A DNA stretch of 44,723 nt from Escherichia phage vB_EcoS_fFiEco02: sequence record NC_073316.1. The stretch is one strand, 5' to 3'. Position 1 is the stretch's first letter, and each line of letters starts with the position of its first letter. The notes under the pieces are model-generated. The model searched no databases. It was given only the letters and a program-made list of their open reading frames with translations, and was not told the DNA's origin. Both the position numbers and the translations under genes were made by a program. Below, in pieces: positions 2,756 to 40,499 of this stretch.

Positions 2756-2777
2756 AGCCCCGAAAGGGGCTTTCTTA
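2756..2777 (+). terminator. putative rho-independent terminator/attenuator after portal
   Basis: hairpin agcccc-gaaa-ggggct followed by T-rich tttctt. Confidence 0.35.
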
Positions 2778-2781
2778 TAGT

Positions 2782-3858
2782 ATGCTATTAACTTTAGCGC
2801 CACAGGGTTTATCTATGAGCTTACTTACATCTCTAATCAGCCACCAGATATGGCTGCAACGCACTGCATCCGGTGAGGTGAAAGACCTCGCGCCGTTCAT
2901 TAAGGAGATGCGGGACGAAATAAAACGGCAGGTGCTGTTATTCGGTGACGACGGGCGGAGCACTGCGCGACTGAATAAACTGTTACTCGACCTTGAAGAA
3001 GCACTGACGGGGCTTACAGGTGACTGGCAAACAAAGCTGACAGAAGACCTTAAGGAACTGGCCGCATATGAGGCTGAGTGGAACGTAAAAACACTGACCG
3101 CCAACGTTGACGCGGAATTTGTTACGCCTACTGCCGAACAGGTGTGGGCTGCTGCCGAGTTTCAGCCGCTGTCGTTAAGCGACAAGCCCGTCGATTTCAC
3201 TAAGCTGATGGCAGGCTGGGGTGAAACGGAGGCCGCGCGCCTCGTAACCGGCGTTAAGATGGGGTTTGTTCAGGGCCAAACCACACGGCAGATTGTTAAA
3301 AATGTCGTAGGCGCTGGTGGGCTGGCGGACATCTCTGAACGCAACGCGGCTACGGTAATCCGCACCGCGCTGTCTCACGTATCCAACGAAGCCCGCAACG
3401 AGACATACCGCCAGAACGACGACATCATCGAGAAATACGAATGGGTGTCAACGCTGGACAGCCGTACCAGTACGATTTGCAGGGCCAGAGACGGGATGAC
3501 GTGGGAAATCGGTAAAGGTCCGATGCCCCCCGCCCATTTTGGATGTCGAAGTACCACTGCACCGGTAATCAGTTCGGAGTTCGACTTCCTAGATAAAGGT
3601 GCAAAACGCGCGGCTAAGGGTGCGGACGGCGGTATGCAGGTAAGCGCAGACACCACCTATTACGAGTTCCTGAAACAGCAACCGGCATGGTTCGTGGATG
3701 AAGCACTCGGACCTACCCGCGGTGCTATATTCAGGAATAGTGGGATACCCCCAGAGGAATTCCGGGTAATATCCGTCGACGCTTTTGGTAGACCTTTAAC
3801 CTTGAAGGAGATGGCGGCGTTAGATAACAGGGTTGCTGAATATCTTAGGTCGGTATAA
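2782..3858 (+). CDS. head morphogenesis protein (SPP1 gp7 / Mu F-like minor head protein)
   Basis: 358 aa; motif STICRARDG...PPAHFGCRS characteristic of the phage head morphogenesis domain; follows portal. Start may be the ATG at 2815. Confidence 0.75.
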   Translation: MLLTLAPQGLSMSLLTSLISHQIWLQRTASGEVKDLAPFIKEMRDEIKRQVLLFGDDGRSTARLNKLLLDLEEALTGLTGDWQTKLTEDLKELAAYEAEWNVKTLTANVDAEFVTPTAEQVWAAAEFQPLSLSDKPVDFTKLMAGWGETEAARLVTGVKMGFVQGQTTRQIVKNVVGAGGLADISERNAATVIRTALSHVSNEARNETYRQNDDIIEKYEWVSTLDSRTSTICRARDGMTWEIGKGPMPPAHFGCRSTTAPVISSEFDFLDKGAKRAAKGADGGMQVSADTTYYEFLKQQPAWFVDEALGPTRGAIFRNSGIPPEEFRVISVDAFGRPLTLKEMAALDNRVAEYLRSV

Positions 3859-3916: not shown

Positions 3917-3971
3917 CCCCATGAAGGTATGCCTATCTCTGGCATCGACCAATCTTCATGGGGTTTTCTTA
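3917..3971 (+). terminator. rho-independent terminator (long hairpin + T-tract)
   Basis: 10-bp stem ccccatgaag/cttcatgggg with internal atgcc/ggcat pairing, followed by ttttctta. Confidence 0.5.
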
Positions 3972-3982
3972 TAGGGTTTAAT

Positions 3983-4552
3983 ATGGGAATTGTTTTTGGT
4001 GTGGGTATTAACGATGTTTCACCAATAAGTTGCGGAGGGGTGCATATAGCGTCCTACGCCGTATGGAAGAACATGTTAAAGAGGTGCTACGACAAGAAAT
4101 GGCCGCAAAGAAACAGAACTTATATAGGTTGCCGCGTGTCGGACGATTGGTTGGTGTTCAGTAATTTCAAGGTCTGGTTTGATGATTTTTATGTACCTGG
4201 GTGGCAGATAGATAAGGATTTACTTAACCCGGGAAATAAGGTTTACGATGCTTCTAACTGTGTTTTCATCCCTAAATCCCTCAATACTTTCCTAACAGCC
4301 CACGACGCTCTTCGAGGCGAACACCCACTCGGCGTACATTTCCATAAACAAAAGAAAAGATTCATCGCTCAAGTATCCGTGGATGGCGTATCTGAACAAA
4401 TAGGTGCTTACGAAACCGCTCAAGAGGCACACGTAGCATGGTTTCATAGAAAAATTGAATTAGCATATGAATACAAAGGTCTTTGCGATAGCGTAGACCC
4501 ACGCCTTTTCGAAGGCGTCTTACGTAAGATTAACTCAATGAAAGAGGTTTAG
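3983..4552 (+). CDS. HNH-like homing endonuclease with C-terminal AP2-like DNA-binding domain (putative)
   Basis: paralog of 12934-13566 (shared CxDWLxFSNFxxW, GWxxDKDLL, CxFxPxxLNxFL, C-terminal G..F.....EA motif); track start 3929 lies inside the terminator hairpin so the ATG at 3983 is preferred. Confidence 0.55.
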   Translation: MGIVFGVGINDVSPISCGGVHIASYAVWKNMLKRCYDKKWPQRNRTYIGCRVSDDWLVFSNFKVWFDDFYVPGWQIDKDLLNPGNKVYDASNCVFIPKSLNTFLTAHDALRGEHPLGVHFHKQKKRFIAQVSVDGVSEQIGAYETAQEAHVAWFHRKIELAYEYKGLCDSVDPRLFEGVLRKINSMKEV

Positions 4553-5014: not shown

Positions 5015-5018
5015 TAAA

Positions 5019-5048
5019 AGGCCCCATAATGGGGCCTTAGTTTTATTT
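5019..5048. terminator. bidirectional terminator between convergent genes
   Basis: hairpin aggcccca-taa-tggggcct followed by tagttttattt; A/T-rich on both sides. Confidence 0.55.
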
Positions 5049-5564
5049 AAATCGCGCAGGCATTAACACCATAAAGGCCGTGTTTGAAAATTGTATTTTG
5101 CATCCTCTGGTTTGGTCCTGGAAATCGAAACGAGCAATTTCATTTTTGTATGCCTTAGAAATCTTGTACGCGTCTGCCAAATAGCGCAGAGTGAACCCTA
5201 TACTGTCGACAACACCCGGTGTGATGTGCGCCACGCGTCTCCAGTCAGGAAAGTTTCCTTCTACAACATCTACCGGAAGTGTACATATAAGCGCACGATT
5301 ATCGTCATAGAAAGATACACTGCCGTTGTCGTGGTTTACCTCTGCGTAGTTAAATTTAGAAGGCTCTCTCCCTTTGATGTCTATGAGAGTCCCTTTCTCA
5401 ACGTTGGTCTTCACATTGTCGCAGAACAATCTATGACCGTCCGTAGACACTATCAATCCTTCAGGGTCTATGTAAAAAGCGTTCAAATAGTAGCGAACAT
5501 CATTTTTAGCCCTGCATATTTTCGCCCCTACATACGCAGGGAAAGTAATTACTGTAGTAACCAT
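5043..5564 (-). CDS. hypothetical protein (moron with own promoter)
   Basis: 173 aa ORF on the opposite strand to the structural genes, with SD aggaga and its own strong promoter; no recognisable motif. Confidence 0.55.
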   Translation of the reverse strand: MVTTVITFPAYVGAKICRAKNDVRYYLNAFYIDPEGLIVSTDGHRLFCDNVKTNVEKGTLIDIKGREPSKFNYAEVNHDNGSVSFYDDNRALICTLPVDVVEGNFPDWRRVAHITPGVVDSIGFTLRYLADAYKISKAYKNEIARFDFQDQTRGCKIQFSNTAFMVLMPARFK

Positions 5565-5591
5565 TTATCATCTCCTGTTTAAGTTAACCGA

Positions 5592-5620
5592 ATAGTACCC
5601 TATTATATTGGGGTGCGCAA
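5592..5620 (-). promoter_or_regulatory. sigma70-type promoter TTGCGC-N17-TACTAT with GAATAG-N4-CTATTC palindrome
   Basis: 26 bp identical to the promoter at 15561-15589; drives 5043-5564. Confidence 0.6.
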
Positions 5621-5686
5621 ACTATTTGTTTACGTATTCCAGTTATTCCACTCAATTGTAAACGTTGGAATAAACTATTCGAATAG

Positions 5687-5715
5687 TTGACTTTTCACTG
5701 AAAATATGATAAGCT
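5687..5715 (+). promoter_or_regulatory. promoter TTGACT-N17-TAAGCT of structured RNA A
   Basis: near-identical to 37525-37553 (TTGACTTTT.ACT.AAAATATG.TAAGCT); palindrome CTATTCGAATAG directly upstream. Confidence 0.5.
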
Positions 5716-5721
5716 CCACCT

Positions 5722-5918
5722 GAGCTTGTGAAGTATGAACAAGCGACCGCGGCGCGGGCAGGTAACGGAGCGGGACGTAAGTCCTGAGTGTAGTTACGCT
5801 GACGCGTTCGGAAGGGCCATACTCTATTGCTTGTGTAAAAAGTAACTGGTTTACTGAGATTACGCCGTTTCTATGTTTAAATGATAAGGACTAGCGCCCC
5901 GCTTTAAGGCGGGGCTTT
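5722..5918 (+). ncRNA. structured RNA element A (paralog of 37560-37794); candidate cis-acting antiterminator-like RNA or small RNA
   Basis: about 110 nt core conserved with copy B; stems GCTTGT/ACAAGC, CAG-GTAAC/GTTAC-g-CTG and GGAC-GTAA-GTCC show compensatory changes relative to B; ends at hairpin gccccgc-tttaag-gcggggc + ttt; the only ORF inside is not conserved in B. Confidence 0.5.
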
Positions 5919-5939
5919 ACTTATCGAGAAAGGGGAAAC

Positions 5940-6326
5940 ATGAATCTTAAAGCAACTGTCGTAGCGGGAGCATGTTTCATCATCCTGTTATATGCGCACG
6001 GCTACTATCAATACCGCAGCGGCTGGGGTGAAGGCCGTGCTAATCTCGTTTCGCAGCAACAGCAGAAAGCACAGGCTGAGCTGACGAAGAAAACACAACG
6101 GCAGCAGCAGGATGAATCAAAGGCCGCCGCTGCTGACAACGAAGGCAAGACGAAATCAGAGGTGATTACCCGTGAAGTCGTTAAGTACATTAAAACGCCT
6201 GGCCGCAGCGTGTGCACTTTCGACGATGCTCGCGTCCTGCTCAAGTCCCACGCCGTTGTCAACGCCAATTCCATCCCCGGATACGACGATGATGCAGCCG
6301 CCGTGCAAACTGGCACCGCCAAGTAG
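5940..6326 (+). CDS. i-spanin (Rz-like)
   Basis: 128 aa; N-terminal transmembrane segment (VVAGACFIILLYAHGYY), Q/K-rich coiled-coil region; contains the start of a +1-frame lipoprotein ORF. Confidence 0.65.
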   Translation: MNLKATVVAGACFIILLYAHGYYQYRSGWGEGRANLVSQQQQKAQAELTKKTQRQQQDESKAAAADNEGKTKSEVITREVVKYIKTPGRSVCTFDDARVLLKSHAVVNANSIPGYDDDAAAVQTGTAK

Positions 6327-6435
6327 CGACGCTGACGAGGATTTAGCTATCGACGTTCAGAACGCCGAATGTGTACGGCAACTGAGACTGAAAGTGTTCA
6401 TGTTGCAGGATTACGTGAGGAATATTCTGGAATAG
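6172..6435 (+). CDS. o-spanin (Rz1-like lipoprotein), overlapping Rz in +1 frame
   Basis: GTG start with SD gaggtga; signal peptide MKSLSTLKRLAAACALSTMLAS|C with lipobox LASC; Pro-rich mature part; starts inside 5940-6326 and extends 109 nt beyond it. Confidence 0.65.
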   Translation: MKSLSTLKRLAAACALSTMLASCSSPTPLSTPIPSPDTTMMQPPCKLAPPSSDADEDLAIDVQNAECVRQLRLKVFMLQDYVRNILE

Positions 6436-6517
6436 TTGCCTTGTATGTTGGAATAATTTATTCTTGACATGTAAATCCGGGAGGCCCGGATTCCAACGTC
6501 CAGGGGACATACTGACT

Positions 6518-12933: not shown

Positions 12934-13566
12934 ATGTTCTTGTATGAAGAATTTGAAAAGATACCAGCATCAAAACGGGCGGTATCATGCCGTAAAACAA
13001 TCTGCGGAGTCGGTGTCAACGATGCAGATTTCACCACCAGTATTTTCAACGGCAAAAAGTCTGTTAACCACCCGGTGTACGATATTTGGTGTGCGATGAT
13101 ATTCAGGTGCTACCATGGGTCCGTTAAGCATCCAACATACTCAGGAGTGGTAGTGTGTGAAGACTGGCTGTATTTCTCCAACTACTTTAAATGGTACAAA
13201 GATAACTACGTAGAGGGTTGGCATGTTGACAAAGATTTGCTTACGGATTCTAAAGAATACTCACCGGATACCTGTATATTTGTCCCAAGAGTTTTAAACA
13301 ACTTTCTAACCGACAGCGCAGCGGCTAGAGGTGACCTACCGATAGGCCTTACTTATAGGAAAACAAACGGCAAGATTCGATGCAGGGTTAATAATCCGCT
13401 AACCGGGGTGCGCGAAAACTTAGGCGATTTTACCGATTTGGATGAAGCCATCAAGGCCAGAACGCTGCGGAAGTTAGAGATAGCCGGAGAACTTAAGCCA
13501 CTTATGGATTCCATAGACGGGAGAATCTATCCGAGGGCCGTTTCTGTAATTAAGGCACAACGATAA
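12934..13566 (+). CDS. HNH-like homing endonuclease with AP2-like domain (paralog of 3983-4552)
   Basis: shared motifs CEDWLYFSNYFKW, GWHVDKDLL, CIFVPRVLNNFL and C-terminal LGDFTDLDEAIKA; SD gaggtga. Confidence 0.55.
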   Translation: MFLYEEFEKIPASKRAVSCRKTICGVGVNDADFTTSIFNGKKSVNHPVYDIWCAMIFRCYHGSVKHPTYSGVVVCEDWLYFSNYFKWYKDNYVEGWHVDKDLLTDSKEYSPDTCIFVPRVLNNFLTDSAAARGDLPIGLTYRKTNGKIRCRVNNPLTGVRENLGDFTDLDEAIKARTLRKLEIAGELKPLMDSIDGRIYPRAVSVIKAQR

Positions 13567-13570
13567 AACT

Positions 13571-13594
13571 AAGGCCCCTTTCGGGGCCTTTTTC
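13571..13594. terminator. bidirectional terminator
   Basis: hairpin aaggcccc-tttc-ggggcctt flanked by A/T runs on both strands; between convergent genes. Confidence 0.55.
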
Positions 13595-13825
13595 TTACTC
13601 ATCAATATTGCTTCGGTACTCCCGTAACTTCTCCAGACTTTCAATTGCTTCCGCTAAGTCTGTCCCGGTATCTTTGTGGCCGCGAAGACCCATGCACAAT
13701 AACTTCTTCAATGCGTGCTGTAACGCCGGGTCGCGTATACCGAATGCGCGTAGTACATCGTAAACGTCTACAGTCATAGTGCTGCCGTAGGTGTTTGTCA
13801 TTGTGCGGTTGTATTTATTTGTCAC
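13595..13825 (-). CDS. hypothetical small protein
   Basis: 76 aa, last gene of the - strand island. Confidence 0.45.
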   Translation of the reverse strand: MTNKYNRTMTNTYGSTMTVDVYDVLRAFGIRDPALQHALKKLLCMGLRGHKDTGTDLAEAIESLEKLREYRSNIDE

Positions 13826-14015
13826 TGTTAACTCTCTTAAATCTGGCTATGCCTGACTCGTTAATGTTGCCTATTTCAAAGAAGCTGCGATATTTAGGCG
13901 AATACATTCTTACATCGCCATTCTCTAGGGTGGTCCCTTCATATACAGCACCTACTTCGAATCCATTTTTCTCCGCGTACGGACTAACATCGGTACATTC
14001 ATACATGTCTTTCAT
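13815..14015 (-). CDS. hypothetical small protein
   Basis: 66 aa, overlaps the neighbouring genes in the island operon. Confidence 0.4.
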   Translation of the reverse strand: MKDMYECTDVSPYAEKNGFEVGAVYEGTTLENGDVRMYSPKYRSFFEIGNINESGIARFKRVNSDK

Positions 14016-15142
14016 CCCAGCATCTCCGGTGAAATAGTTAAACGTGCGACCTCGCCATATTCGGCGCTATAAGTAATTACGTTTGCACTGCGGCCCGACA
14101 TCCACCCACCACGGGAGGCATATGCATCTTTAGCCGCGAGAGTGCGGTGTTGCTCAACAATCATGTTATGGCTTTCTACAATCTTTTGGTGGTGCAGGTG
14201 ACCCACGTGGGCGTAGCTGTAAACACTCTCGCCGAACGCTTTGCGGAACTTGGCGATCATAACCGGTTCGATAGCGTCGAATCGTGCTTTATGCCCATGA
14301 TGGAAGAACAGCGTCGTTTTGCCGTGTTGCACCATCTTGTAAACATCCGGCGACGTATCGACGAACACACGCGGCTCGTTGTCGTATAGCGTACTGAACA
14401 TCTCAGCCAACCAAATCATGCCACTCTCGTCGTGGTTCCCTCGCACAATAAGCAAGCGAACATTTTTATGTTTAACCAGCGCCATATCTACAACACGGCG
14501 CACCATACGAATCATGTAGCGTACAAGTTTCTGATAGCGCGTGTCGGCGTCAAGAACGTGACCACTTGCGGGTGTAACCGCGTCCAGACTATTGAAGTGT
14601 GCAAGGTCGCCCAGCAGGTTAATAACTCCTGTTCCGGCGTCAGGCGCTTTCTGGAACGCAGCATCAAACCAGCGAGAGAACAGGTCTTCCGCGATTTTCA
14701 TATCCCAGTCGTCGCCGCTCTCGTCGGCCCACGCCAGCATACCGAGATGAAAATCAGATACCGTGTAAAGATTGAGTAACTTATCGTCGCGTTTGGCGCG
14801 AACGGCTTTAACAGGCGCAACGGGGGTAATCTCTGACTTCATGCCTTCGATTACGGCTTTCATCAACTCGACCTGACGTTCTGCGTCAGTGTCGGTCTTA
14901 ACCCATTGCAGTTTAGTGTTGCCGAACTCGTCCACCAGAGACGACGTACCTTTAATCTTGTAGCCGTCAGGCACAAGGTGACTAACGTCGCGACCGTGGC
15001 CTACACCTTTCTTAGCCAGCTTCGCTTTACGGATACGGATAACGCGGTCTGAGATGCCGTATTTACGGGCGATGTCGATATTCTTCATACCGGCGTTCAA
15101 TTCTTCCTGCAACTGTTCGTCGGTTATTTTCTTCCGGGCCAT
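14012..15142 (-). CDS. HTH domain + Mre11/SbcD-like calcineurin-type metallophosphoesterase
   Basis: N-terminal HTH-like NIDIARKYGISDRVIRIRKAKL; phosphoesterase motifs SDFHLG, GDLAH, GNHD, HHGH, GHLHH; SD aggaataagc. Confidence 0.6.
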   Translation of the reverse strand: MARKKITDEQLQEELNAGMKNIDIARKYGISDRVIRIRKAKLAKKGVGHGRDVSHLVPDGYKIKGTSSLVDEFGNTKLQWVKTDTDAERQVELMKAVIEGMKSEITPVAPVKAVRAKRDDKLLNLYTVSDFHLGMLAWADESGDDWDMKIAEDLFSRWFDAAFQKAPDAGTGVINLLGDLAHFNSLDAVTPASGHVLDADTRYQKLVRYMIRMVRRVVDMALVKHKNVRLLIVRGNHDESGMIWLAEMFSTLYDNEPRVFVDTSPDVYKMVQHGKTTLFFHHGHKARFDAIEPVMIAKFRKAFGESVYSYAHVGHLHHQKIVESHNMIVEQHRTLAAKDAYASRGGWMSGRSANVITYSAEYGEVARLTISPEMLG

Positions 15143-15206
15143 GCTTATTCCTCGTGCTTAGGATTTGTCCTATTTAACCACAGTGGATTCCTTTAAATAA
15201 AGGCGA

Positions 15207-15533
15207 CTATTTACTTTCCGCGCCTATCGCCCACCCAGTCATTACCATTTGCAGGCGGGTGGCGGTCAGTAGGCTGTAAAACGCGTCCCCGTTTTTCTCT
15301 ACCGAACGTATCACCGTATATGTTACGGCTTGCGGAGGTAGGCCAGATTTACCAACCCCTACGGCAGCATCACACTCGCGAACAGCAGAGTCCTTAAACG
15401 CCTTTACAATAGTAGGGTCGGCTTTCGCAAGTACACCAGAAGTAATAAGAACAGATTCACTAAATACCTGTTCGCACGGGGACCCAAAAGTAGCAAAAGA
15501 CATAAACCCCAGGGATAATACTAATTTACGCAT
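15207..15533 (-). CDS. secreted small protein (candidate superinfection-exclusion/periplasmic factor)
   Basis: 108 aa with N-terminal signal-peptide-like segment MRKLVLSLGFMSFATFG; own strong promoter. Confidence 0.5.
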   Translation of the reverse strand: MRKLVLSLGFMSFATFGSPCEQVFSESVLITSGVLAKADPTIVKAFKDSAVRECDAAVGVGKSGLPPQAVTYTVIRSVEKNGDAFYSLLTATRLQMVMTGWAIGAESK

Positions 15534-15560
15534 AATTATTTCCTCAGTAAGTTACAGGTG

Positions 15561-15589
15561 AATAGTACCCTATTATATTGGGGTGTGCA
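15561..15589 (-). promoter_or_regulatory. sigma70-type promoter TTGCAC-N17-TACTAT with GAATAG-N4-CTATTC palindrome
   Basis: 26-bp identity with the promoter at 5592-5620; drives the - strand island. Confidence 0.6.
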
Positions 15590-15697
15590 AGTAGTGTGCT
15601 AGAATAAGTTTGCGCCTAGTGTCGCACACGAAAAGCGGGTGGTTCCCGTCTGGCGCGTCAACCTTAACCTGTAACCTCTTAACCAAAGGATTAAAGA

Positions 15698-18806: not shown

Positions 18807-19553
18807 TTACTCGCTGCGTACTTTTCCGTTACATAGCTCCGTGAACTCAGCTATTATCTCGCTGTTGGCCACCATCCACTCACTGGCCCCATCAAAGTTG
18901 CTTAGCTCCGCCGATACGTGTGCGCGGTGAAAGTATCGCTCTAACATACGGCAACGAGCACCATTAGCGTCTTGGTATACACTAAGCACATGGAACTCAA
19001 ACGGAGTGGAGCGCTCCAGTTGAGCAAGTCGCTGTTTTAACTTGTTAGTAATACCTATTTTAAGGTATTTACCACATGCAGAAAGAAGTCCGTAAATGTA
19101 CCCTGGTTTGTTAGAGTCGTAGCCGTGTTTGGCGCACGACGGACAACCATGCCTGTGCACTAAAATATTATTAACCCCTGTAGCAAACACCCCGTGGTCA
19201 TTACATGCGCGTATCGCTTTGGAGTTTTTGTTTAGGTACGCGCCGCCTTCAAAACCCACGAACGTATATCGAACATCCGCGGATTTTATTTGCTCAATAA
19301 CGGCATCTGTATTCTTGCGGTAGGCAGCCGCCGCGGCTTCTCGACTGCATTTCATACACCCGTGTCCTCCAGAGATGCTACGGGCTATAGCTGAAAATTC
19401 ACCGTGGGACGGGCAAATAAGTCTAATCTTGCTAGTCGAGTCAATGTACTCACTACCATCATAACTTGCGGATATTGTGTACTTCCCGCCGTGTTTCTTT
19501 AAATCTAACTCGACCATTTTCTTCCGTTCTTCCCAACCAATTTTAACGCTCAT
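18807..19553 (-). CDS. GIY-YIG-type nuclease with N-terminal CxxHG…GCxxC zinc-finger repeats (putative homing endonuclease)
   Basis: motif GYIYGLLSACGKYLKIGITNKLKQR (GIY…YIG…R); two repeats CPSHGEF…GCMKC and CNDHGVF…GCPSC; SD aaggaggag; opposite strand inside the tail module. Confidence 0.6.
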   Translation of the reverse strand: MSVKIGWEERKKMVELDLKKHGGKYTISASYDGSEYIDSTSKIRLICPSHGEFSAIARSISGGHGCMKCSREAAAAAYRKNTDAVIEQIKSADVRYTFVGFEGGAYLNKNSKAIRACNDHGVFATGVNNILVHRHGCPSCAKHGYDSNKPGYIYGLLSACGKYLKIGITNKLKQRLAQLERSTPFEFHVLSVYQDANGARCRMLERYFHRAHVSAELSNFDGASEWMVANSEIIAEFTELCNGKVRSE

Positions 19554-19686
19554 ACCTACCTCGCTCCTCCTTGTTGTAGTAGCATGCTATTCGACGACGC
19601 CCTGTTTGGCAACTTAAACGCGGTGACGCTATGCTTCTCACCATGGTAACATTGACCTTAACATCCAATCTATCGAGGTTCTAATA

Positions 19687-27945: not shown

Positions 27946-28230
27946 CTAACTATAATAGTTCGCTATTAGGTCGTCAACCTGTTTGAACGACCCGACGACA
28001 AAAACATTCGCGCCGCGTTTGCGCATACGCTCATGCTCACGTAACTGGTGTGGGTCTGGCTTCGTGTTTTCGTCTTTCTTAACCTCGACGAACCAGACGA
28101 TACCGTTGGGGAGAATTACCAGCAGGTCGGGGGCGCCGGAACGCCCCTCGTAGGAAAGTTTACGAACGAGGCCGCCGATAGCCTCGAATCGCTCTTTTGC
28201 GTATTTCTGGATGCGCCCCTCTTTAGTCAT
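27946..28230 (-). CDS. VRR-NUC domain nuclease
   Basis: PD-(D/E)xK-like GAPDLLVILPNGIVWFVEVKK motif; ATG at 28230 overlaps the upstream stop. Confidence 0.6.
   Translation of the reverse strand: MTKEGRIQKYAKERFEAIGGLVRKLSYEGRSGAPDLLVILPNGIVWFVEVKKDENTKPDPHQLREHERMRKRGANVFVVGSFKQVDDLIANYYS
27949..27977 (-). promoter_or_regulatory. promoter TTGACG-N17-TATAGT with AATAG-N4-CTATT palindrome in the spacer
   Basis: same architecture as the promoters at 31677-31705 and 34295-34324. Confidence 0.5.
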
Positions 28231-31676: not shown

Positions 31677-31705
31677 ACTATAATAGCTAACTATTCAGGT
31701 GTCAA
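31677..31705 (-). promoter_or_regulatory. promoter TTGACA-N17-TATAGT with AATAG-N4-CTATT palindrome
   Basis: consensus -35 and near-consensus -10; palindrome 31682-31695. Confidence 0.55.
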
Positions 31706-34294: not shown

Positions 34295-34324
34295 ACTATA
34301 ATAGTGAACTATTCACGTTGTCAA
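34295..34324 (-). promoter_or_regulatory. promoter TTGACA-N18-TATAGT with GAATAG-N4-CTATTC palindrome
   Basis: divergent from the XRE gene promoter; palindrome 34300-34314. Confidence 0.55.
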
Positions 34325-34334
34325 TGGGCTTTTC

Positions 34335-34357
34335 TAAAATAATTAATATGGTACTAT
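34335..34357 (+). promoter_or_regulatory. extended -10 promoter (TGgTACTAT) for the XRE regulator gene
   Basis: TACTATTCAC as in the early promoters; weak -35; SD aaggag 9 nt before the ATG. Confidence 0.5.
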
Positions 34358-34388
34358 TCACATATCAACTGACTAAGGAGTAATTGAC

Positions 34389-34604
34389 ATGCAACCATCT
34401 GAACTAGGCATACGTGTAGAACAACGCCGTAAAGAACTCGGCATCTCTCAGCGCCGTCTGGCTGTCCTGGCCGGCGTTTCCCAGGGCGCGATTAACCAGC
34501 TGGCACTCGGCGTAACTCAGGACGTCCGCCCGGCAACGCTGTTTAAACTGGCGGAAGTGCTGGAAGTAGACGCCAAGTGGCTGGCGTTCGGTGAAGGGGC
34601 TTAA
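34389..34604 (+). CDS. XRE-family (Cro/CI-type) HTH transcriptional regulator
   Basis: 71 aa; HTH signature ELGISQRRLAVLAGVSQGAINQLALG; opposite orientation to flanking replication genes. Confidence 0.75.
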   Translation: MQPSELGIRVEQRRKELGISQRRLAVLAGVSQGAINQLALGVTQDVRPATLFKLAEVLEVDAKWLAFGEGA

Positions 34605-37524: not shown

Positions 37525-37553
37525 TTGACTTTTACTTAAAAATATGCTAAGCT
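37525..37553 (+). promoter_or_regulatory. promoter TTGACT-N17-TAAGCT of structured RNA B
   Basis: paralog of 5687-5715. Confidence 0.5.
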
Positions 37554-37559
37554 TCACTG

Positions 37560-37794
37560 AGCTTGTGAGATATCGCAAGCGACCGCGGAGCGGCAGGGAA
37601 CGCAACGCGTGCCATTAGGCACTTGAGTGTAGTTCCGCTGGCGCTTTCGGAAGGGCCAAAGTCTATTGTTAATCCCGCCTAAATACCCAAGTCACTGATA
37701 ATTAAAAGTTTATATAGTTGCCGTAAGCAAGGTAGAGAGTACTTCACTCCGCTGGGGTGGGCTAACGCCCACCCACTGCGTTGCGTACTCTTTT
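37560..37794 (+). ncRNA. structured RNA element B (paralog of 5722-5918)
   Basis: conserved core; stems GCTTG/CAAGC, CAG-GGAAC/GTTCC-g-CTG, GTGCC-ATTA-GGCAC; ends in a long hairpin + tctttt. Confidence 0.5.
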
Positions 37795-37833: not shown

Positions 37834-37862
37834 TTGCACACCCCAACATAATAGGATACTAT
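37834..37862 (+). promoter_or_regulatory. early promoter TTGCAC-N17-TACTAT with AATAG-N4-CTATTC palindrome
   Basis: consensus-like hexamers; conserved leader …ATCGAAACGAGA… shared with 39344 and 42424 promoters. Confidence 0.6.
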
Positions 37863-37896
37863 TCACTTATCGAAACGAGACAGATGAGTGAGGGTT

Positions 37897-39343: not shown

Positions 39344-39372
39344 TTGCACACTGGGATAGAATAGGCTACTAT
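39344..39372 (+). promoter_or_regulatory. early promoter TTGCAC-N17-TACTAT with GAATAG-N4-CTATTC palindrome
   Basis: palindrome 39359-39374; leader contains ACGAGAGGAGAG. Confidence 0.6.
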
Positions 39373-39403
39373 TCATTTACACGAACGAGAGGAGAGACGG
39401 AAT

Positions 39404-40239: not shown

Positions 40240-40499
40240 CCAGCATCTTATTTATCTGGGTATTGTCCGCAGGCCAGATGCAACTAGCGGCATCAGAAAC
40301 GTTTTATTCGATGGAGGCGTGCCAGTCAGCGGCACGCGCCGCAGAGAACGCGCACTTTCTGTTTCAGGGTGACAAGCCCAACGACTCAGAGGTACGCGCC
40401 GCAGAGAACGCGCACTTTCTGTTTCAGGGTGACAAGCCCAACGACTCAGAGGTACGCGCTATCTGCTCGCCTAAGCGACTTGGTAAACAGGAGAAGTGA
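40236..40499 (+). CDS. small protein with N-terminal hydrophobic segment and internal 20-aa tandem duplication
   Basis: MTSILFIWVLSAGQMQLAAS…; AAENAHFLFQGDKPNDSEVR repeated twice. Confidence 0.45.
   Translation: MTSILFIWVLSAGQMQLAASETFYSMEACQSAARAAENAHFLFQGDKPNDSEVRAAENAHFLFQGDKPNDSEVRAICSPKRLGKQEK
40334..40453 (+). repeat. perfect 60-bp tandem duplication (2 copies, plus 7-bp partial third)
   Basis: acgcgccgcagagaacgcgcactttctgtttcagggtgacaagcccaacgactcagaggt repeated head-to-tail. Confidence 0.9.

What the first reader, a model, noticed from the sequence alone, without database searches (positions are those of the whole stretch)
5043..5620. Second moron with a 26-bp promoter identical to that of the tail-module island
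The 173-aa - strand ORF 5043–5564 has no recognisable motif and sits inside the + strand head module. Its promoter (gaatagtaccctattatattggggtg, 5590–5615 on +) is an exact copy of the one at 15559–15584, so the two opposite-strand cassettes are co-regulated and probably expressed independently of late transcription.
Basis: seen in the sequence. Interest (0 to 1): 0.5.

Follow-up and report, generated by a model that had tools for sequence, protein, structure and literature searches.

The report
Swappable gene cassette behind shared promoter
A small backward-facing gene in the head-gene block of an E. coli phage sits behind one copy of a promoter/operator box that the phage uses at seven or eight places; related phages carry other genes at this spot, and here the gene encodes a half-size copy of the bacterial DNA sliding clamp that keeps the clamp's partner-binding pocket but not the parts that close the ring.

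Summary
The 173-aa minus-strand ORF (5043-5564) exists.

The pair is not private. It belongs to a family of 7-8 sites sharing the core GAATAG-N4-CTATTATAKT. These sites head nearly all non-structural transcription units of this Kagunavirus. A 2023 paper on phage fBC-Eco01 already reported the motif as 7 PHIRE-detected 'phage promoters'.

Read towards the gene, the box is TTGCRC-17 nt-TACTAT. This is a host sigma-70-type frame wrapped around a 14-bp palindrome that looks like an operator.

The ORF is not motif-free. It is a high-confidence beta-clamp fold covering domain II plus the C-terminal half of domain III. It keeps 14 of 18 partner-binding pocket residues and lacks every ring-interface residue.

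Comparative genomics supports a moron-like cassette. At least 8 different genes occupy this slot behind the same promoter in relatives. The clamp cassette sits in three different slots across relatives, and phage Bas74 lacks it.

No transcript data exist, so promoter activity, timing and protein function are inferred. Interest is modest.

The 246-nt non-coding element next door (5680-5925) may be the more unusual object.

The parts
5016..5046 (.). Terminator hairpin AAGGCCCC-ATAAT-GGGGCCTT (stem 5018-5038). It is shared by the rightward decoration gene and the leftward clamp-like gene and forms the left boundary of the cassette.
   Evidence: calls it a terminator on the + strand. On the - strand the tail has only 4 T in 8. 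Schulenburg's GenBank record annotates terminators on both strands here. A near-identical stem flanks the tail island at 13571-13590 (I4). The hairpin travels with the clamp gene into other slots.
5043..5564 (-). 173-aa half-size beta-clamp homologue: domain II plus the C-terminal half of domain III. The partner-binding pocket is kept and the ring interfaces are absent.
   Evidence: ORF and translation; phmmer to E. coli beta, residues 16-116 to 144-252 and 117-171 to 312-365. AlphaFold2 pLDDT 96, pTM 0.91. Foldseek top hits are E. coli beta clamp, E 4e-8, TMq 0.69; dN/dS 0.125; phrog_3007, E 3.6e-36.
5565..5589 (-). Short 5' leader with Shine-Dalgarno AGGAG (5576-5572 on the - strand). The inferred transcription start is near 5585.
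   Evidence: Sequence. The leader motif AACTTAAAC..GGAG accompanies the clamp gene even in Salmonella relatives that use a different promoter.
5590..5620 (-). Class I promoter/operator box. On the - strand it reads TTGCGC (5620-5615), a 17-nt spacer, then TACTAT (5597-5592). A TATAAT lies inside the spacer (5607-5602). The palindrome AATAG-N4-CTATT spans 5591-5604.
   Evidence: Across 64 distinct sites, TTGC and ATAATAG..TACTATTC are near-invariant; the S102 tail-island copy keeps TTGCAT-17-TATTAT but loses TATAAT.
15560..15590 (-). Second, identical copy of the class I box. It heads the 4-gene leftward tail-module island.
13595..15533 (-). Tail-module island driven by the second copy. It holds a 108-aa signal-peptide protein (15207-15533), a 376-aa Mre11/SbcD-like metallophosphoesterase (14012-15142) and two small ORFs (13815-14015 and 13595-13825). 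It ends at hairpin 13571-13590.
   Evidence: The promoter-proximal gene is replaced by an Imm-like superinfection-immunity gene in fPoEco01 and Bas74.
37839..37869 (+). Third class I copy (2 mismatches), reading TTGCAC-17-TACTAT. It heads the rightward operon of small early-type ORFs.
   Evidence: The site is positionally conserved in fPoEco01, Bas74 and S102.
39344..39374 (+). Fourth class I copy with a diverged spacer and TTGCAC-17-TACTAT kept. It heads the next rightward gene block.
   Evidence: (I2).
27949..27968 (-). Class II site: TTGACG-17-TATAGT with the palindrome in the spacer. It heads a leftward replication-module unit.
31677..31696 (-). Class II site: TTGACA-17-TATAGT with the palindrome in the spacer. 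It heads the leftward DUF2815 and DNA-polymerase unit.
34295..34358 (.). Divergent control region with two palindrome sites: a class II site at 34295-34314 pointing left, and a class I-like site at 34345-34358 pointing right to the XRE gene.
34389..34604 (+). 71-aa XRE/Cro-type helix-turn-helix protein. It is the candidate binder of the palindrome, which is inference only.
   Evidence: HTH_3, E 2.3e-12. DicA-like. Two palindrome sites lie in its own upstream region. Present in Bas74 at 96% identity, in S102 at 51% and in SE1 at 40%.

Best explanation
The region 5016-5620 is an autonomous leftward transcription unit set inside the rightward head-gene operon.

Promoter (inferred). Host RNA polymerase with sigma-70 starts near 5585 from a moderately weak promoter, TTGCGC-17 nt-TACTAT. 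The transcript has a roughly 20-nt leader with an AGGAG ribosome-binding site, then the 173-codon ORF. It stops at the hairpin 5018-5038, which also ends the oppositely oriented decoration gene.

Operator (inferred). The promoter contains the 14-bp palindrome AATAG-N4-CTATT. The same palindrome lies over the -10 element or in the spacer of 7-8 promoters that head the non-structural units: two leftward islands in the structural block, the rightward small-ORF operons and the leftward replication operons. One phage DNA-binding protein could therefore switch them together. The 71-aa XRE/Cro-type protein at 34389-34604 is the best candidate. Its own upstream region carries two sites.

Cargo slot (shown by comparison). 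The position just behind this promoter holds different genes in different phages. Relatives carry a methyltransferase, small membrane or secreted proteins, or unknown ORFs. Promoter-gene-terminator units also move between three intergenic sites of the head module. This resembles morons and the PeSL cassettes of T4-type phages.

Cargo protein (fold and pocket conservation shown; function inferred). The cargo here is a half-size beta-clamp homologue. It keeps the hydrophobic cleft that binds clamp-binding motifs and lacks domain I and the first half of domain III, so it cannot make the head-to-tail ring. It most likely binds clamp-binding-motif proteins of the host, for example the clamp-loader delta subunit, the Pol III alpha subunit, Hda, MutL or translesion polymerases. 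It would act as a decoy or an adaptor during infection, not as a sliding clamp.
For: Anatomy:
- The repeat is exact and non-random.
- All class I copies have a Shine-Dalgarno sequence and start codon at a constant 25-35 nt downstream, despite different leaders and cargos.

Promoter frame:
- TTGC and TACTAT are near-invariant in 64 distinct sites from about 40 genomes, while the first T of the internal TATAAT varies.
- In Jerseyvirus S102 the tail-island copy reads TTGCAT-17-TATTAT and has lost TATAAT.
- Salmonella relatives SE1 and SaI drive the same gene, with the same leader, from ordinary TTGACA/TTGACT-17-TAnnnT promoters at the same distance.
- Class II sites are textbook TTGACA-17/18-TATAGT promoters with the same palindrome in the spacer.
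- No RNA polymerase gene is annotated in fPoEco01 or Bas74.

Regulon:
- The window has 7 exact palindromes against about 1 expected.
- The same 7 sites are positionally conserved in fPoEco01 and Bas74, and 5 in S102.
- Two sites lie upstream of the XRE gene.

Cargo slot:
- At least 8 cargos follow the same box.
- The clamp cassette occupies three slots.
- The copy in another slot of fBC-Eco01 is 99.2% identical at the nucleotide level.
- Bas74 and S102 have no clamp gene.
- The gene's GC content is 43% against 51% for the window.

Protein:
- pLDDT 96 and a beta-clamp fold.
- Of the 18 pocket residues listed in PMC11139829, 14 are identical under the alignment, against about 18% overall identity.
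- The family's invariant columns (T41 D42 G43 R45 P106 W108, and others) are pocket positions.
- All seven listed dimer-interface residues lie in segments that have no counterpart.
- dN/dS is 0.125.
- The family of short homologues is large.
- No clamp-binding motif was found in the phage's own replication proteins.
Against: - No transcription start or expression data exist. The only RNA-seq study of a relative did not resolve this gene.
- TTGCGC/TACTAT matches only 7 of 12 consensus positions, and the consensus scanner did not call it.
- TATAAT inside the box is a rival -10 element. The core is nearly symmetric, so it could fire in the opposite direction or both. At 15560 the scanner calls a plus-strand GTTACA-17-TATATT.
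- The XRE-operator link is untested. The palindrome is kept in S102, where XRE is only 51% identical.
- Three of eight subsite II pocket residues differ (N320T, V344T, M364A).
- Family members also occur in T1-like phages. From my own knowledge, not checked here, these phages lack a DNA polymerase. That argues against a simple inhibitor of host replication.
- The oligomeric state is unknown, so a non-canonical ring cannot be excluded.
Confidence: 0.6

Rival explanations
1. The ORF encodes a true processivity clamp for the phage replisome, as GenBank annotations say ('DNA polymerase III sliding clamp'). It would be expressed with other replication functions.
For: - Homology and fold match the beta clamp.
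- In Skarpretter and Bas78 the homologue lies in DNA-metabolism operons next to Dam methyltransferase, primase and helicase genes.
- In this window it shares a promoter box with the replication units.
- Four copies of 1.5 domains could in principle make a six-domain ring (my speculation).
Against: - The protein has only 173 aa. Domain I and residues 253-311 of domain III are missing, including all listed ring-interface residues.
- It scores far below the DnaN model cut-offs: TIGR00663 20.3 against 137.65, and PF02767 17.2 against 27.
- Bas74 and S102 carry the same type of polymerase, primase and helicase but have no such gene, so it is dispensable for replication.
- No clamp-binding motif was found in the phage polymerase, helicases or nucleases.
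Confidence: 0.15
2. The 26-31-nt box is not the promoter of the adjacent minus-strand gene. It would be only a protein-binding or recombination boundary element, or a promoter firing the other way, and the cassette would be transcribed from elsewhere.
For: - The core GAATAG-N4-CTATTATAKT has the same polarity as the class II promoters. In class I sites that polarity points away from the adjacent gene.
- At 15560 a plus-strand GTTACA-17-TATATT scores 9/12 and could serve the tail-chaperone gene.
- The minus-strand hexamers are weak.
- Cassette breakpoints coincide with the box.
Against: - There is no other promoter-like sequence between the box and the strong rightward promoter at 5687-5715.
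- Spacing from box to start codon is constant across variable cargos.
- A -35-like TTGC is conserved exactly 17 nt from TAYTAT on the gene side in class I only.
- Orthologous genes in SE1 and SaI have canonical promoters at the same place and in the same orientation.
Confidence: 0.15
3. The box is a promoter for a phage-encoded RNA polymerase, as stated for the 7 PHIRE motifs of fBC-Eco01.
For: The conserved block is long (about 31 nt), which resembles single-subunit RNA polymerase promoters. The claim is made in PMC9825357.
Against: - No RNA polymerase gene is annotated in fPoEco01, Bas74, SE1 or S102.
- No large unassigned non-structural ORF exists in the window.
- The box contains sigma-70-type -35 and -10 elements at 17-nt spacing, and class II members are consensus sigma-70 promoters.
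Confidence: 0.03
4. The two identical 26-mers are a recent neutral duplication or gene-conversion tract with no regulatory meaning.
For: The exact identity is genome-specific. fPoEco01 has 2 differences between the two copies. The promoter variants travel with their cargo.
Against: The box is conserved at the same 5-7 positions across genera that are only about 76% identical overall. It always lies at the 5' end of a transcription unit.
Confidence: 0.02

Closest known systems
PHIRE 'phage promoter' motif tgAATAGTa-ccTATTat-T of Kagunavirus fBC-Eco01 (PMC9825357)
   Same: It is the same sequence motif in a close relative with the same copy number (seven). One copy lies upstream of a 100%-identical clamp-like gene.
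   Different: The paper assigns the motif to a phage-encoded RNA polymerase, and no such gene is annotated. It does not describe the sigma-70 frame, the palindrome, the two orientation classes or the variable cargo.
PeSL mobile regulatory cassettes of T4-type phages (Arbiol et al. 2010, PMC2839356; Comeau et al. 2014, PMC4122927)
   Same: Both involve repeated, highly similar sigma-70-type promoters and stem-loop terminators that flank non-essential, variable ORFs. Insertions, deletions and replacements between close relatives are bounded by these elements.
   Different: Here the promoter and terminator sit at opposite ends of the cargo instead of forming one composite terminator-promoter unit. 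The host is a 44-kb siphovirus. The cassettes face against the structural operon. Mini-circles were not tested.
Morons of lambdoid phages (Juhala/Hendrix definition; my own knowledge)
   Same: It is an autonomous promoter-gene-terminator unit found between genes that are adjacent in related phages. Its GC content is lower than its surroundings: 43% against 51%.
   Different: Classical morons are expressed from a repressed prophage and benefit the lysogen. This is a virulent phage, and the promoter is shared with its own early and replication units.
Bacterial beta sliding clamp DnaN (PF00712/PF02767/PF02768, TIGR00663)
   Same: The fold is the same. Of 18 clamp-binding-motif pocket residues, 14 are identical, including the TDGHRL, PDxRRV and MPxR motifs.
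   Different: The protein has 173 aa against 366. It lacks domain I and residues 253-311, lacks all dimer-interface residues, and scores below both curated model cut-offs.
Cro/CI-type operator sets of temperate phages (my own knowledge)
   Same: Both have multiple copies of a short palindrome overlapping core promoter elements, including sites upstream of a small XRE-family gene.
   Different: Binding is untested. The sites are dispersed over the whole genome rather than clustered at one immunity region. No lysogeny functions are annotated.

Membership tests
Beta sliding clamp (DnaN) | Three-domain architecture of about 366 aa | tested here: not met
   The protein has 173 aa. It aligns only to E. 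coli beta residues 144-252 and 312-365.
Beta sliding clamp (DnaN) | Score above the curated family cut-offs | tested here: not met
   TIGR00663 scores 20.3 bits against a cut-off of 137.65. PF02767 scores 17.2 against 27.
Beta sliding clamp (DnaN) | Beta-clamp fold | tested here: met
   The AlphaFold2 model has pLDDT 96. The top 50 Foldseek PDB hits are all beta clamps, with E as low as 4e-8 and TMq up to 0.69.
Beta sliding clamp (DnaN) | Hydrophobic clamp-binding-motif pocket (subsites I and II) | tested here: met
   14 of 18 residues listed in PMC11139829 are identical: 11 of 12 in subsite I and 5 of 8 in subsite II. These positions are the invariant columns of the family alignment.
Beta sliding clamp (DnaN) | Head-to-tail dimer interface (I78, F106, R103; I272, L273, E298, E304) | tested here: not met
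   All seven residues lie in domain I or in residues 253-311, which have no counterpart in the 173-aa protein.
Beta sliding clamp (DnaN) | Forms a ring around DNA and confers processivity | not testable with these tools
   This needs oligomeric-state and processivity assays.
Moron (autonomous extra transcription unit) | Own terminator | tested here: met
   The hairpin is at 5018-5038. It is annotated on both strands in Schulenburg. It moves with the gene.
Moron (autonomous extra transcription unit) | Own promoter | tested here: inconclusive
   A conserved TTGCRC-17-TACTAT box lies at constant distance from the start codon. The match to consensus is weak and there are no transcription-start data.
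Moron (autonomous extra transcription unit) | Present between genes that are adjacent in related phages | tested here: met
   Portal and head-morphogenesis genes are adjacent in the window and in Bas74, but the clamp cassette separates them in fBC-Eco01 and phage 26. Bas74 and S102 lack the gene.
Moron (autonomous extra transcription unit) | Expressed from the prophage and benefits the lysogen | not testable with these tools
   No integrase or lysogeny module is annotated in relatives. The feature probably does not apply.
PeSL-type mobile regulatory cassette | Repeated near-identical sigma-70-type promoter plus stem-loop terminator | tested here: met
   The promoter box is repeated 4-8 times. 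The terminator stems AAGGCCCC/GGGGCCTT are repeated at 5018 and 13571. Promoter and terminator flank the cargo and are not one composite element.
PeSL-type mobile regulatory cassette | Insertions, deletions and replacements between close relatives are bounded by the motif | tested here: met
   Homology breaks at the terminator and about 20 nt beyond the box. Slot 2 holds at least 8 cargos, and slot 1 is also variable.
PeSL-type mobile regulatory cassette | Recombination between motifs yields mini-circles | not testable with these tools
   This needs PCR or sequencing of infected-cell DNA.
Phage-RNA-polymerase promoter | Phage encodes its own RNA polymerase | tested here: not met
   No RNA polymerase gene is annotated in four relatives, and the window has no large unassigned ORF.
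XRE/Cro-type operator | Short palindrome in several copies overlapping promoter elements, including upstream of the regulator's own gene | tested here: met
   There are 7 exact AATAG-N4-CTATT sites against about 1 expected. Two lie upstream of the HTH_3 gene.
XRE/Cro-type operator | Bound by the cognate helix-turn-helix protein | not testable with these tools
   Co-variation is weak. SE1 has XRE at 40% identity and no palindromes. S102 has XRE at 51% and keeps the palindromes.

The most novel reading that the evidence does not exclude
The 173-aa protein represents a large, uncharacterised phage family of 'pocket-only' beta-clamp mimics. These would be non-ring proteins that present the clamp's partner-binding cleft and capture host proteins carrying clamp-binding motifs, such as the clamp-loader delta subunit, Pol III alpha, Hda, MutL or translesion polymerases. 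They would either shut down or redirect host replication and repair. The family is traded between phages as a promoter-equipped cassette.
Probability: 0.3. Interest if true: 0.7.

Novelty: new member of a known kind. Interest (0 to 1): 0.35.

Why it matters
For this genome, the result turns an 'unknown moron' into a defined object with three properties:
- It is an accessory cargo cassette.
- Its promoter belongs to the phage's non-structural regulon.
- Its product is a truncated clamp that keeps only the protein-docking cleft.

For phage biology more broadly, two points are testable.

1. Kagunavirus and Jerseyvirus genomes, which are widely used in phage-therapy collections, appear to exchange accessory genes at fixed slots. 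These genes include methyltransferases, exclusion-type proteins and clamp mimics. The slots are marked by a conserved promoter/operator box, a PeSL-like mechanism outside the T4 group.

2. Short beta-clamp-like proteins are very common in phages. A profile search found 10,160 cluster representatives at E <= 1e-10, and the best 150 are all 141-255 aa. They are routinely mislabelled 'sliding clamp', 'DNA polymerase III' or 'RusA-like resolvase'. If they bind clamp-binding motifs off the ring, they would be a new way for phages to tap the host's central replication and repair hub.

Tried and rejected
- RNA-seq of relative vB_Eco_K1B4 (PMC12645636). Time classes are coarse, the phage gene table was not retrievable, and nothing could be assigned to this gene.
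- Rfam, at gathering score on the whole window and by E-value on 5560-5960. No meaningful hit.
- ARAGORN. No tRNA or tmRNA.
- PADLOC models for the clamp-like protein, the 108-aa protein and the phosphoesterase. No hit.
- Clamp-binding-motif scan of the phage proteome. Only 4 internal matches, all in structural proteins and about what chance gives; none in replication proteins or at termini.
- boxA-like antitermination motif search. Not enriched: 15 found against 12.5 expected.
- Literature searches for truncated or 'DnaN-like' phage clamps, and for non-coding RNAs of Guernseyvirinae. Nothing relevant.
- TATAAT inside the box as the -10 element. Considered and ranked second, because its first T varies, it has no -35 partner at 16-18 nt, and it is lost in one S102 copy.
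- T4 MotA-box-type middle promoter. Rejected because the TTGC box is only 7-8 nt from TATAAT.
- XRE as a proven regulator. Not accepted, because co-variation across SE1 and S102 is ambiguous.
- The 36-aa ORF inside the neighbouring non-coding element. Rejected as coding, because it is frame-shifted in the paralogue and in two orthologues.
Full report
**What the window is.**
The window is a Kagunavirus (Guernseyvirinae) genome. It is 99% identical to Escherichia phage vB_EcoS_fPoEco01 over the region tested. Transferring that record's annotation gives this layout:
- A rightward (+) block carries the small-ORF genes, lysis genes, terminase, head and tail genes.
- A leftward (-) replication block spans about 26-37.5 kb.
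- Short leftward islands are embedded in the structural block.

**Checking the observation.**
The ORF at 5043-5564 (-) is present and encodes 173 aa. The 26-mer GAATAGTACCCTATTATATTGGGGTG lies at 5590-5615. With one mismatch the identity runs to 31 nt. Both copies lie just upstream of the first codon of a minus-strand gene.

**The pair belongs to a family.**
A third copy with 2 mismatches lies at 37839-37864 on the other strand. A fourth copy, with a diverged spacer, lies at 39349-39374. Each precedes a plus-strand gene.

The common core is the palindrome AATAG-N4-CTATT. The window has seven exact copies against about one expected. The extended core GAATAG-N4-CTATTATAKT has seven sites with at most 2 mismatches, plus a 3-mismatch site at 6430. 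Shuffles give 0.4 sites at up to 3 mismatches.

The sites fall into two classes:
- Class I (5590, 15560, 37845, 39355, and a variant at 34345) reads, towards the adjacent gene, cTTGC(A/G)CACCCCAATATAATAGGGTACTATTC. This is TTGCRC, 17 nt, then TACTAT.
- Class II (27949, 31677, 34295) reads TTGAC(A/G)-17/18-TATAGT towards the leftward replication genes, with the palindrome in the spacer.

The same seven positions are occupied in fPoEco01 and Bas74. Five are occupied in Jerseyvirus S102, which is only about 76% identical over the aligned part of the genome.

This motif is already published. The fBC-Eco01 paper reports seven PHIRE 'phage promoters' with consensus tgAATAGTa-ccTATTat-T. That paper attributes them to a phage RNA polymerase, but no such gene is annotated in four relatives.

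**Which way does the box fire, and with what?**
There are no usable transcript data, so this is inference. The following points favour a host sigma-70 promoter directed at the adjacent gene:
- A Shine-Dalgarno sequence and start codon follow the box at 25-35 nt in all class I sites, although leaders and cargos vary.
- Across 64 distinct sites from about 40 genomes, TTGC and ATAATAG..TACTATTC are near-invariant. The first T of the internal TATAAT is T, C or G.
- The S102 tail-island copy reads TTGCAT-17-TATTAT and has no TATAAT.
- The Salmonella relatives SE1 and SaI drive the orthologous gene, with the same leader AACTTAAAC..GGAG, from ordinary TTGACA/TTGACT-17-TAnnnT promoters at the same place.

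Against this reading:
- The hexamers match only 7 of 12 consensus positions, and the consensus scanner did not call them.
- The core is nearly symmetric, so opposite or bidirectional firing cannot be excluded.

**A shared operator?**
The palindrome overlaps the -10 element in class I and fills the spacer in class II. A bound protein would block both. The sites head essentially all non-structural units. The long rightward operons instead begin with a different, strong promoter (see 'A neighbour worth attention' below).

The 71-aa HTH_3/DicA-like protein at 34389-34604 has two sites in its own upstream region, which makes it the obvious candidate. The comparative evidence is thin. SE1 has XRE at 40% identity and no palindromes. 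S102 has XRE at 51% and keeps the palindromes.

**The cassette is swappable and mobile.**
Aligning the window with Bas74 and fBC-Eco01 shows conserved boundaries, with unrelated ORFs between them. The boundaries are the terminator hairpin on the left and the promoter box with its upstream flank on the right.

I surveyed about 30 genomes, mostly IMG/VR contigs. The first ORF behind the same box at this slot is:
- the clamp-like gene in 11 genomes;
- a 67-aa ORF;
- a 33/37-aa membrane peptide;
- a 70/75-aa signal-peptide protein;
- ORFs of 81, 83 and 94 aa;
- a roughly 245-aa DNA methyltransferase.

S102 also has a methyltransferase there.

The clamp cassette, meaning terminator, ORF, leader and box together, occupies three different places:
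- between the portal and head-morphogenesis genes in fBC-Eco01 and phage 26;
- between the spanin and scaffold genes in SE1;
- between the decoration and spanin genes here.

The fBC-Eco01 copy is 99.2% identical at the nucleotide level although it sits in a different slot. Bas74 and S102 have no homologue at all. The gene's GC content is 43% against 51% for the window.

The promoter-proximal position of the tail island is variable too:
- Here it holds a 108-aa signal-peptide protein.
- fPoEco01 and Bas74 have an Imm-like superinfection-immunity gene, with a box variant that travels with it.

That also explains why the 26/26 identity is peculiar to this genome.

Structurally this matches the definition of a moron. 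It also matches the PeSL cassettes of T4-type phages.

**The protein.**
Relatives annotate the gene as 'DNA polymerase III sliding clamp', 'beta clamp domain protein', 'POL3Bc superfamily' or, through PHROG 3007, 'RusA-like resolvase'. No RusA signal was found.

- phmmer aligns residues 16-116 to E. coli beta 144-252 and residues 117-171 to 312-365.
- AlphaFold2 on 52 homologues gives pLDDT 96 and pTM 0.91.
- The top 50 Foldseek PDB hits listed are all beta clamps.
- BFVD holds many phage proteins of 163-266 aa with the same compact fold, at TM up to 0.87.
- Curated DnaN models are not reached.

I used the pocket definition from a 2024 review. Of 18 pocket residues, 14 are identical, against roughly 18% identity overall:

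| Position in E. coli beta | Residue in the 173-aa protein | Status |
|---|---|---|
| R152, L155, T172, G174, H175, R176, L177, P242, R246, V247, M362, Y323, P363, R365 | same residue | identical |
| V360 | M | changed |
| N320 | T | changed |
| V344 | T | changed |
| M364 | A | changed |

The invariant columns of the family alignment are these same positions. All seven interface residues named in the review fall in parts the protein does not have.

The gene is under purifying selection, with dN/dS 0.125. A profile search finds 10,160 cluster representatives at E <= 1e-10, and the best 150 are all 141-255 aa. In other phages the homologue sits beside Dam methyltransferase and replication genes, or as a reverse island in the head module.

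The phage's own replication proteins show no clamp-binding motif. My reading is a pocket-bearing, non-ring module that binds host clamp-binding-motif proteins. Whether it acts as a decoy or as an adaptor is open.

**Verdict.**
The finding is real and the 'moron-like, co-regulated cassette' idea is partly right. The promoter repeat is a known genus-wide motif. The ORF has a clear and already annotated homology. No expression data exist. The added value is the cargo-slot picture and the pocket-only reading of the clamp homologue. Interest is modest.

**A neighbour worth attention.**
Immediately to the right of the finding lies a non-coding unit with these parts:
- a strong extended -10 promoter, with TTGACT at 5687-5692 and TGaTAAGCT at 5707-5715;
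- a transcript of about 200 nt;
- a terminator at 5896-5915.

It is at least 95% identical in 177 of 179 phage records across Kagunavirus and Jerseyvirus. In S102 it is 99.2% identical, although that genome is about 76% identical overall. It is absent from E. coli genomes.

A paralogue lies at 37525-37670, at the head of the other rightward operon. Two base pairs in a long hairpin show compensatory changes between the paralogues. One-base insertions or deletions break the annotated 36-aa ORF in the paralogue and in two orthologues. No Rfam family matches.

The layout recalls the putL/putR antitermination RNAs of HK022. That comparison comes from my own knowledge and is untested.

Noticed in passing
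window 5680-5925 (+), paralogue 37525-37670 (+): An ultra-conserved non-coding unit: promoter TTGACT-17-TAAGCT with an extended -10, a transcript of about 200 nt, and a terminator at 5896-5915. It is at least 95% identical in 177 of 179 phage records across two genera. In S102 it is 99.2% identical although that genome is about 76% identical overall. It has no match in E. coli genomes and no Rfam hit. The paralogue at the head of the other rightward operon shows 2 compensatory base-pair changes in a long hairpin. The annotated 36-aa ORF is frame-shifted in the paralogue and in two orthologues. It may be a put-like antitermination RNA or a small RNA.
   Followed up: partly
window 5673-5688: A perfect 16-bp palindrome, AACTATTCGAATAGTT, is built from the same pentamers as the operator but in the opposite arrangement. 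It overlaps the -35 element of the strong rightward promoter. It is conserved in almost all orthologues and absent from the paralogue at 37525.
   Followed up: no
window 18807-19553 (-), with site 19578-19591: A third leftward island lies in the tail module. It encodes a 248-aa T5orf172/MUG113 (GIY-YIG-like) protein with CapR and zinc-ribbon hits, probably a homing endonuclease. fPoEco01 and Bas74 lack it. A degenerate copy of the palindrome, AGTAGCATGCTATT, precedes it.
   Followed up: partly
window 2776-2789 and 6430-6449: Degenerate copies of the core motif lie in the two 'empty' intergenic slots, portal|head-morphogenesis and spanin|scaffold, where other phages carry the clamp cassette. 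They may be relics of former cassettes or recombination targets.
   Followed up: partly
window 15207-15533 (-): The promoter-proximal gene of the tail island encodes a 108-aa protein with an N-terminal signal-peptide-like segment. It matches phrog_14165 (function unknown) and no Pfam family. fPoEco01 and Bas74 carry an Imm-like superinfection-immunity gene in its place. It may be an exclusion function.
   Followed up: partly
window 14012-15142 (-): The 376-aa Mre11/SbcD-like metallophosphoesterase (phrog_704) has faint N-terminal helix-turn-helix-type hits: GerE at E 0.012, and phrog_836 'late transcriptional activator' at E 8.6e-4, residues 3-36.
   Followed up: no
window 3929-4552 (+) and 12934-13566 (+): Two ORFs are annotated in relatives as I-HmuI-like HNH endonucleases, although Pfam gives no hit here. 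They sit next to the two cassette slots. The first is absent from Bas74, fBC-Eco01 and Ivi. Homing could help co-convert the neighbouring cargo.
   Followed up: no
window 40326-40445 (+): A 60-nt unit is duplicated in perfect tandem register at 97% identity, inside a small rightward ORF of the early-type region (D1).
   Followed up: no
PHROG 3007 label, seen in Bas78, Skarpretter, SaI_NFG_5579 and other records: Pharokka-type annotations call this family 'RusA-like Holliday junction resolvase'. The Pfam scan (E up to 1) and the PDB fold search returned only beta-clamp matches and nothing RusA-like. The label looks like a propagated misnomer.
   Followed up: partly
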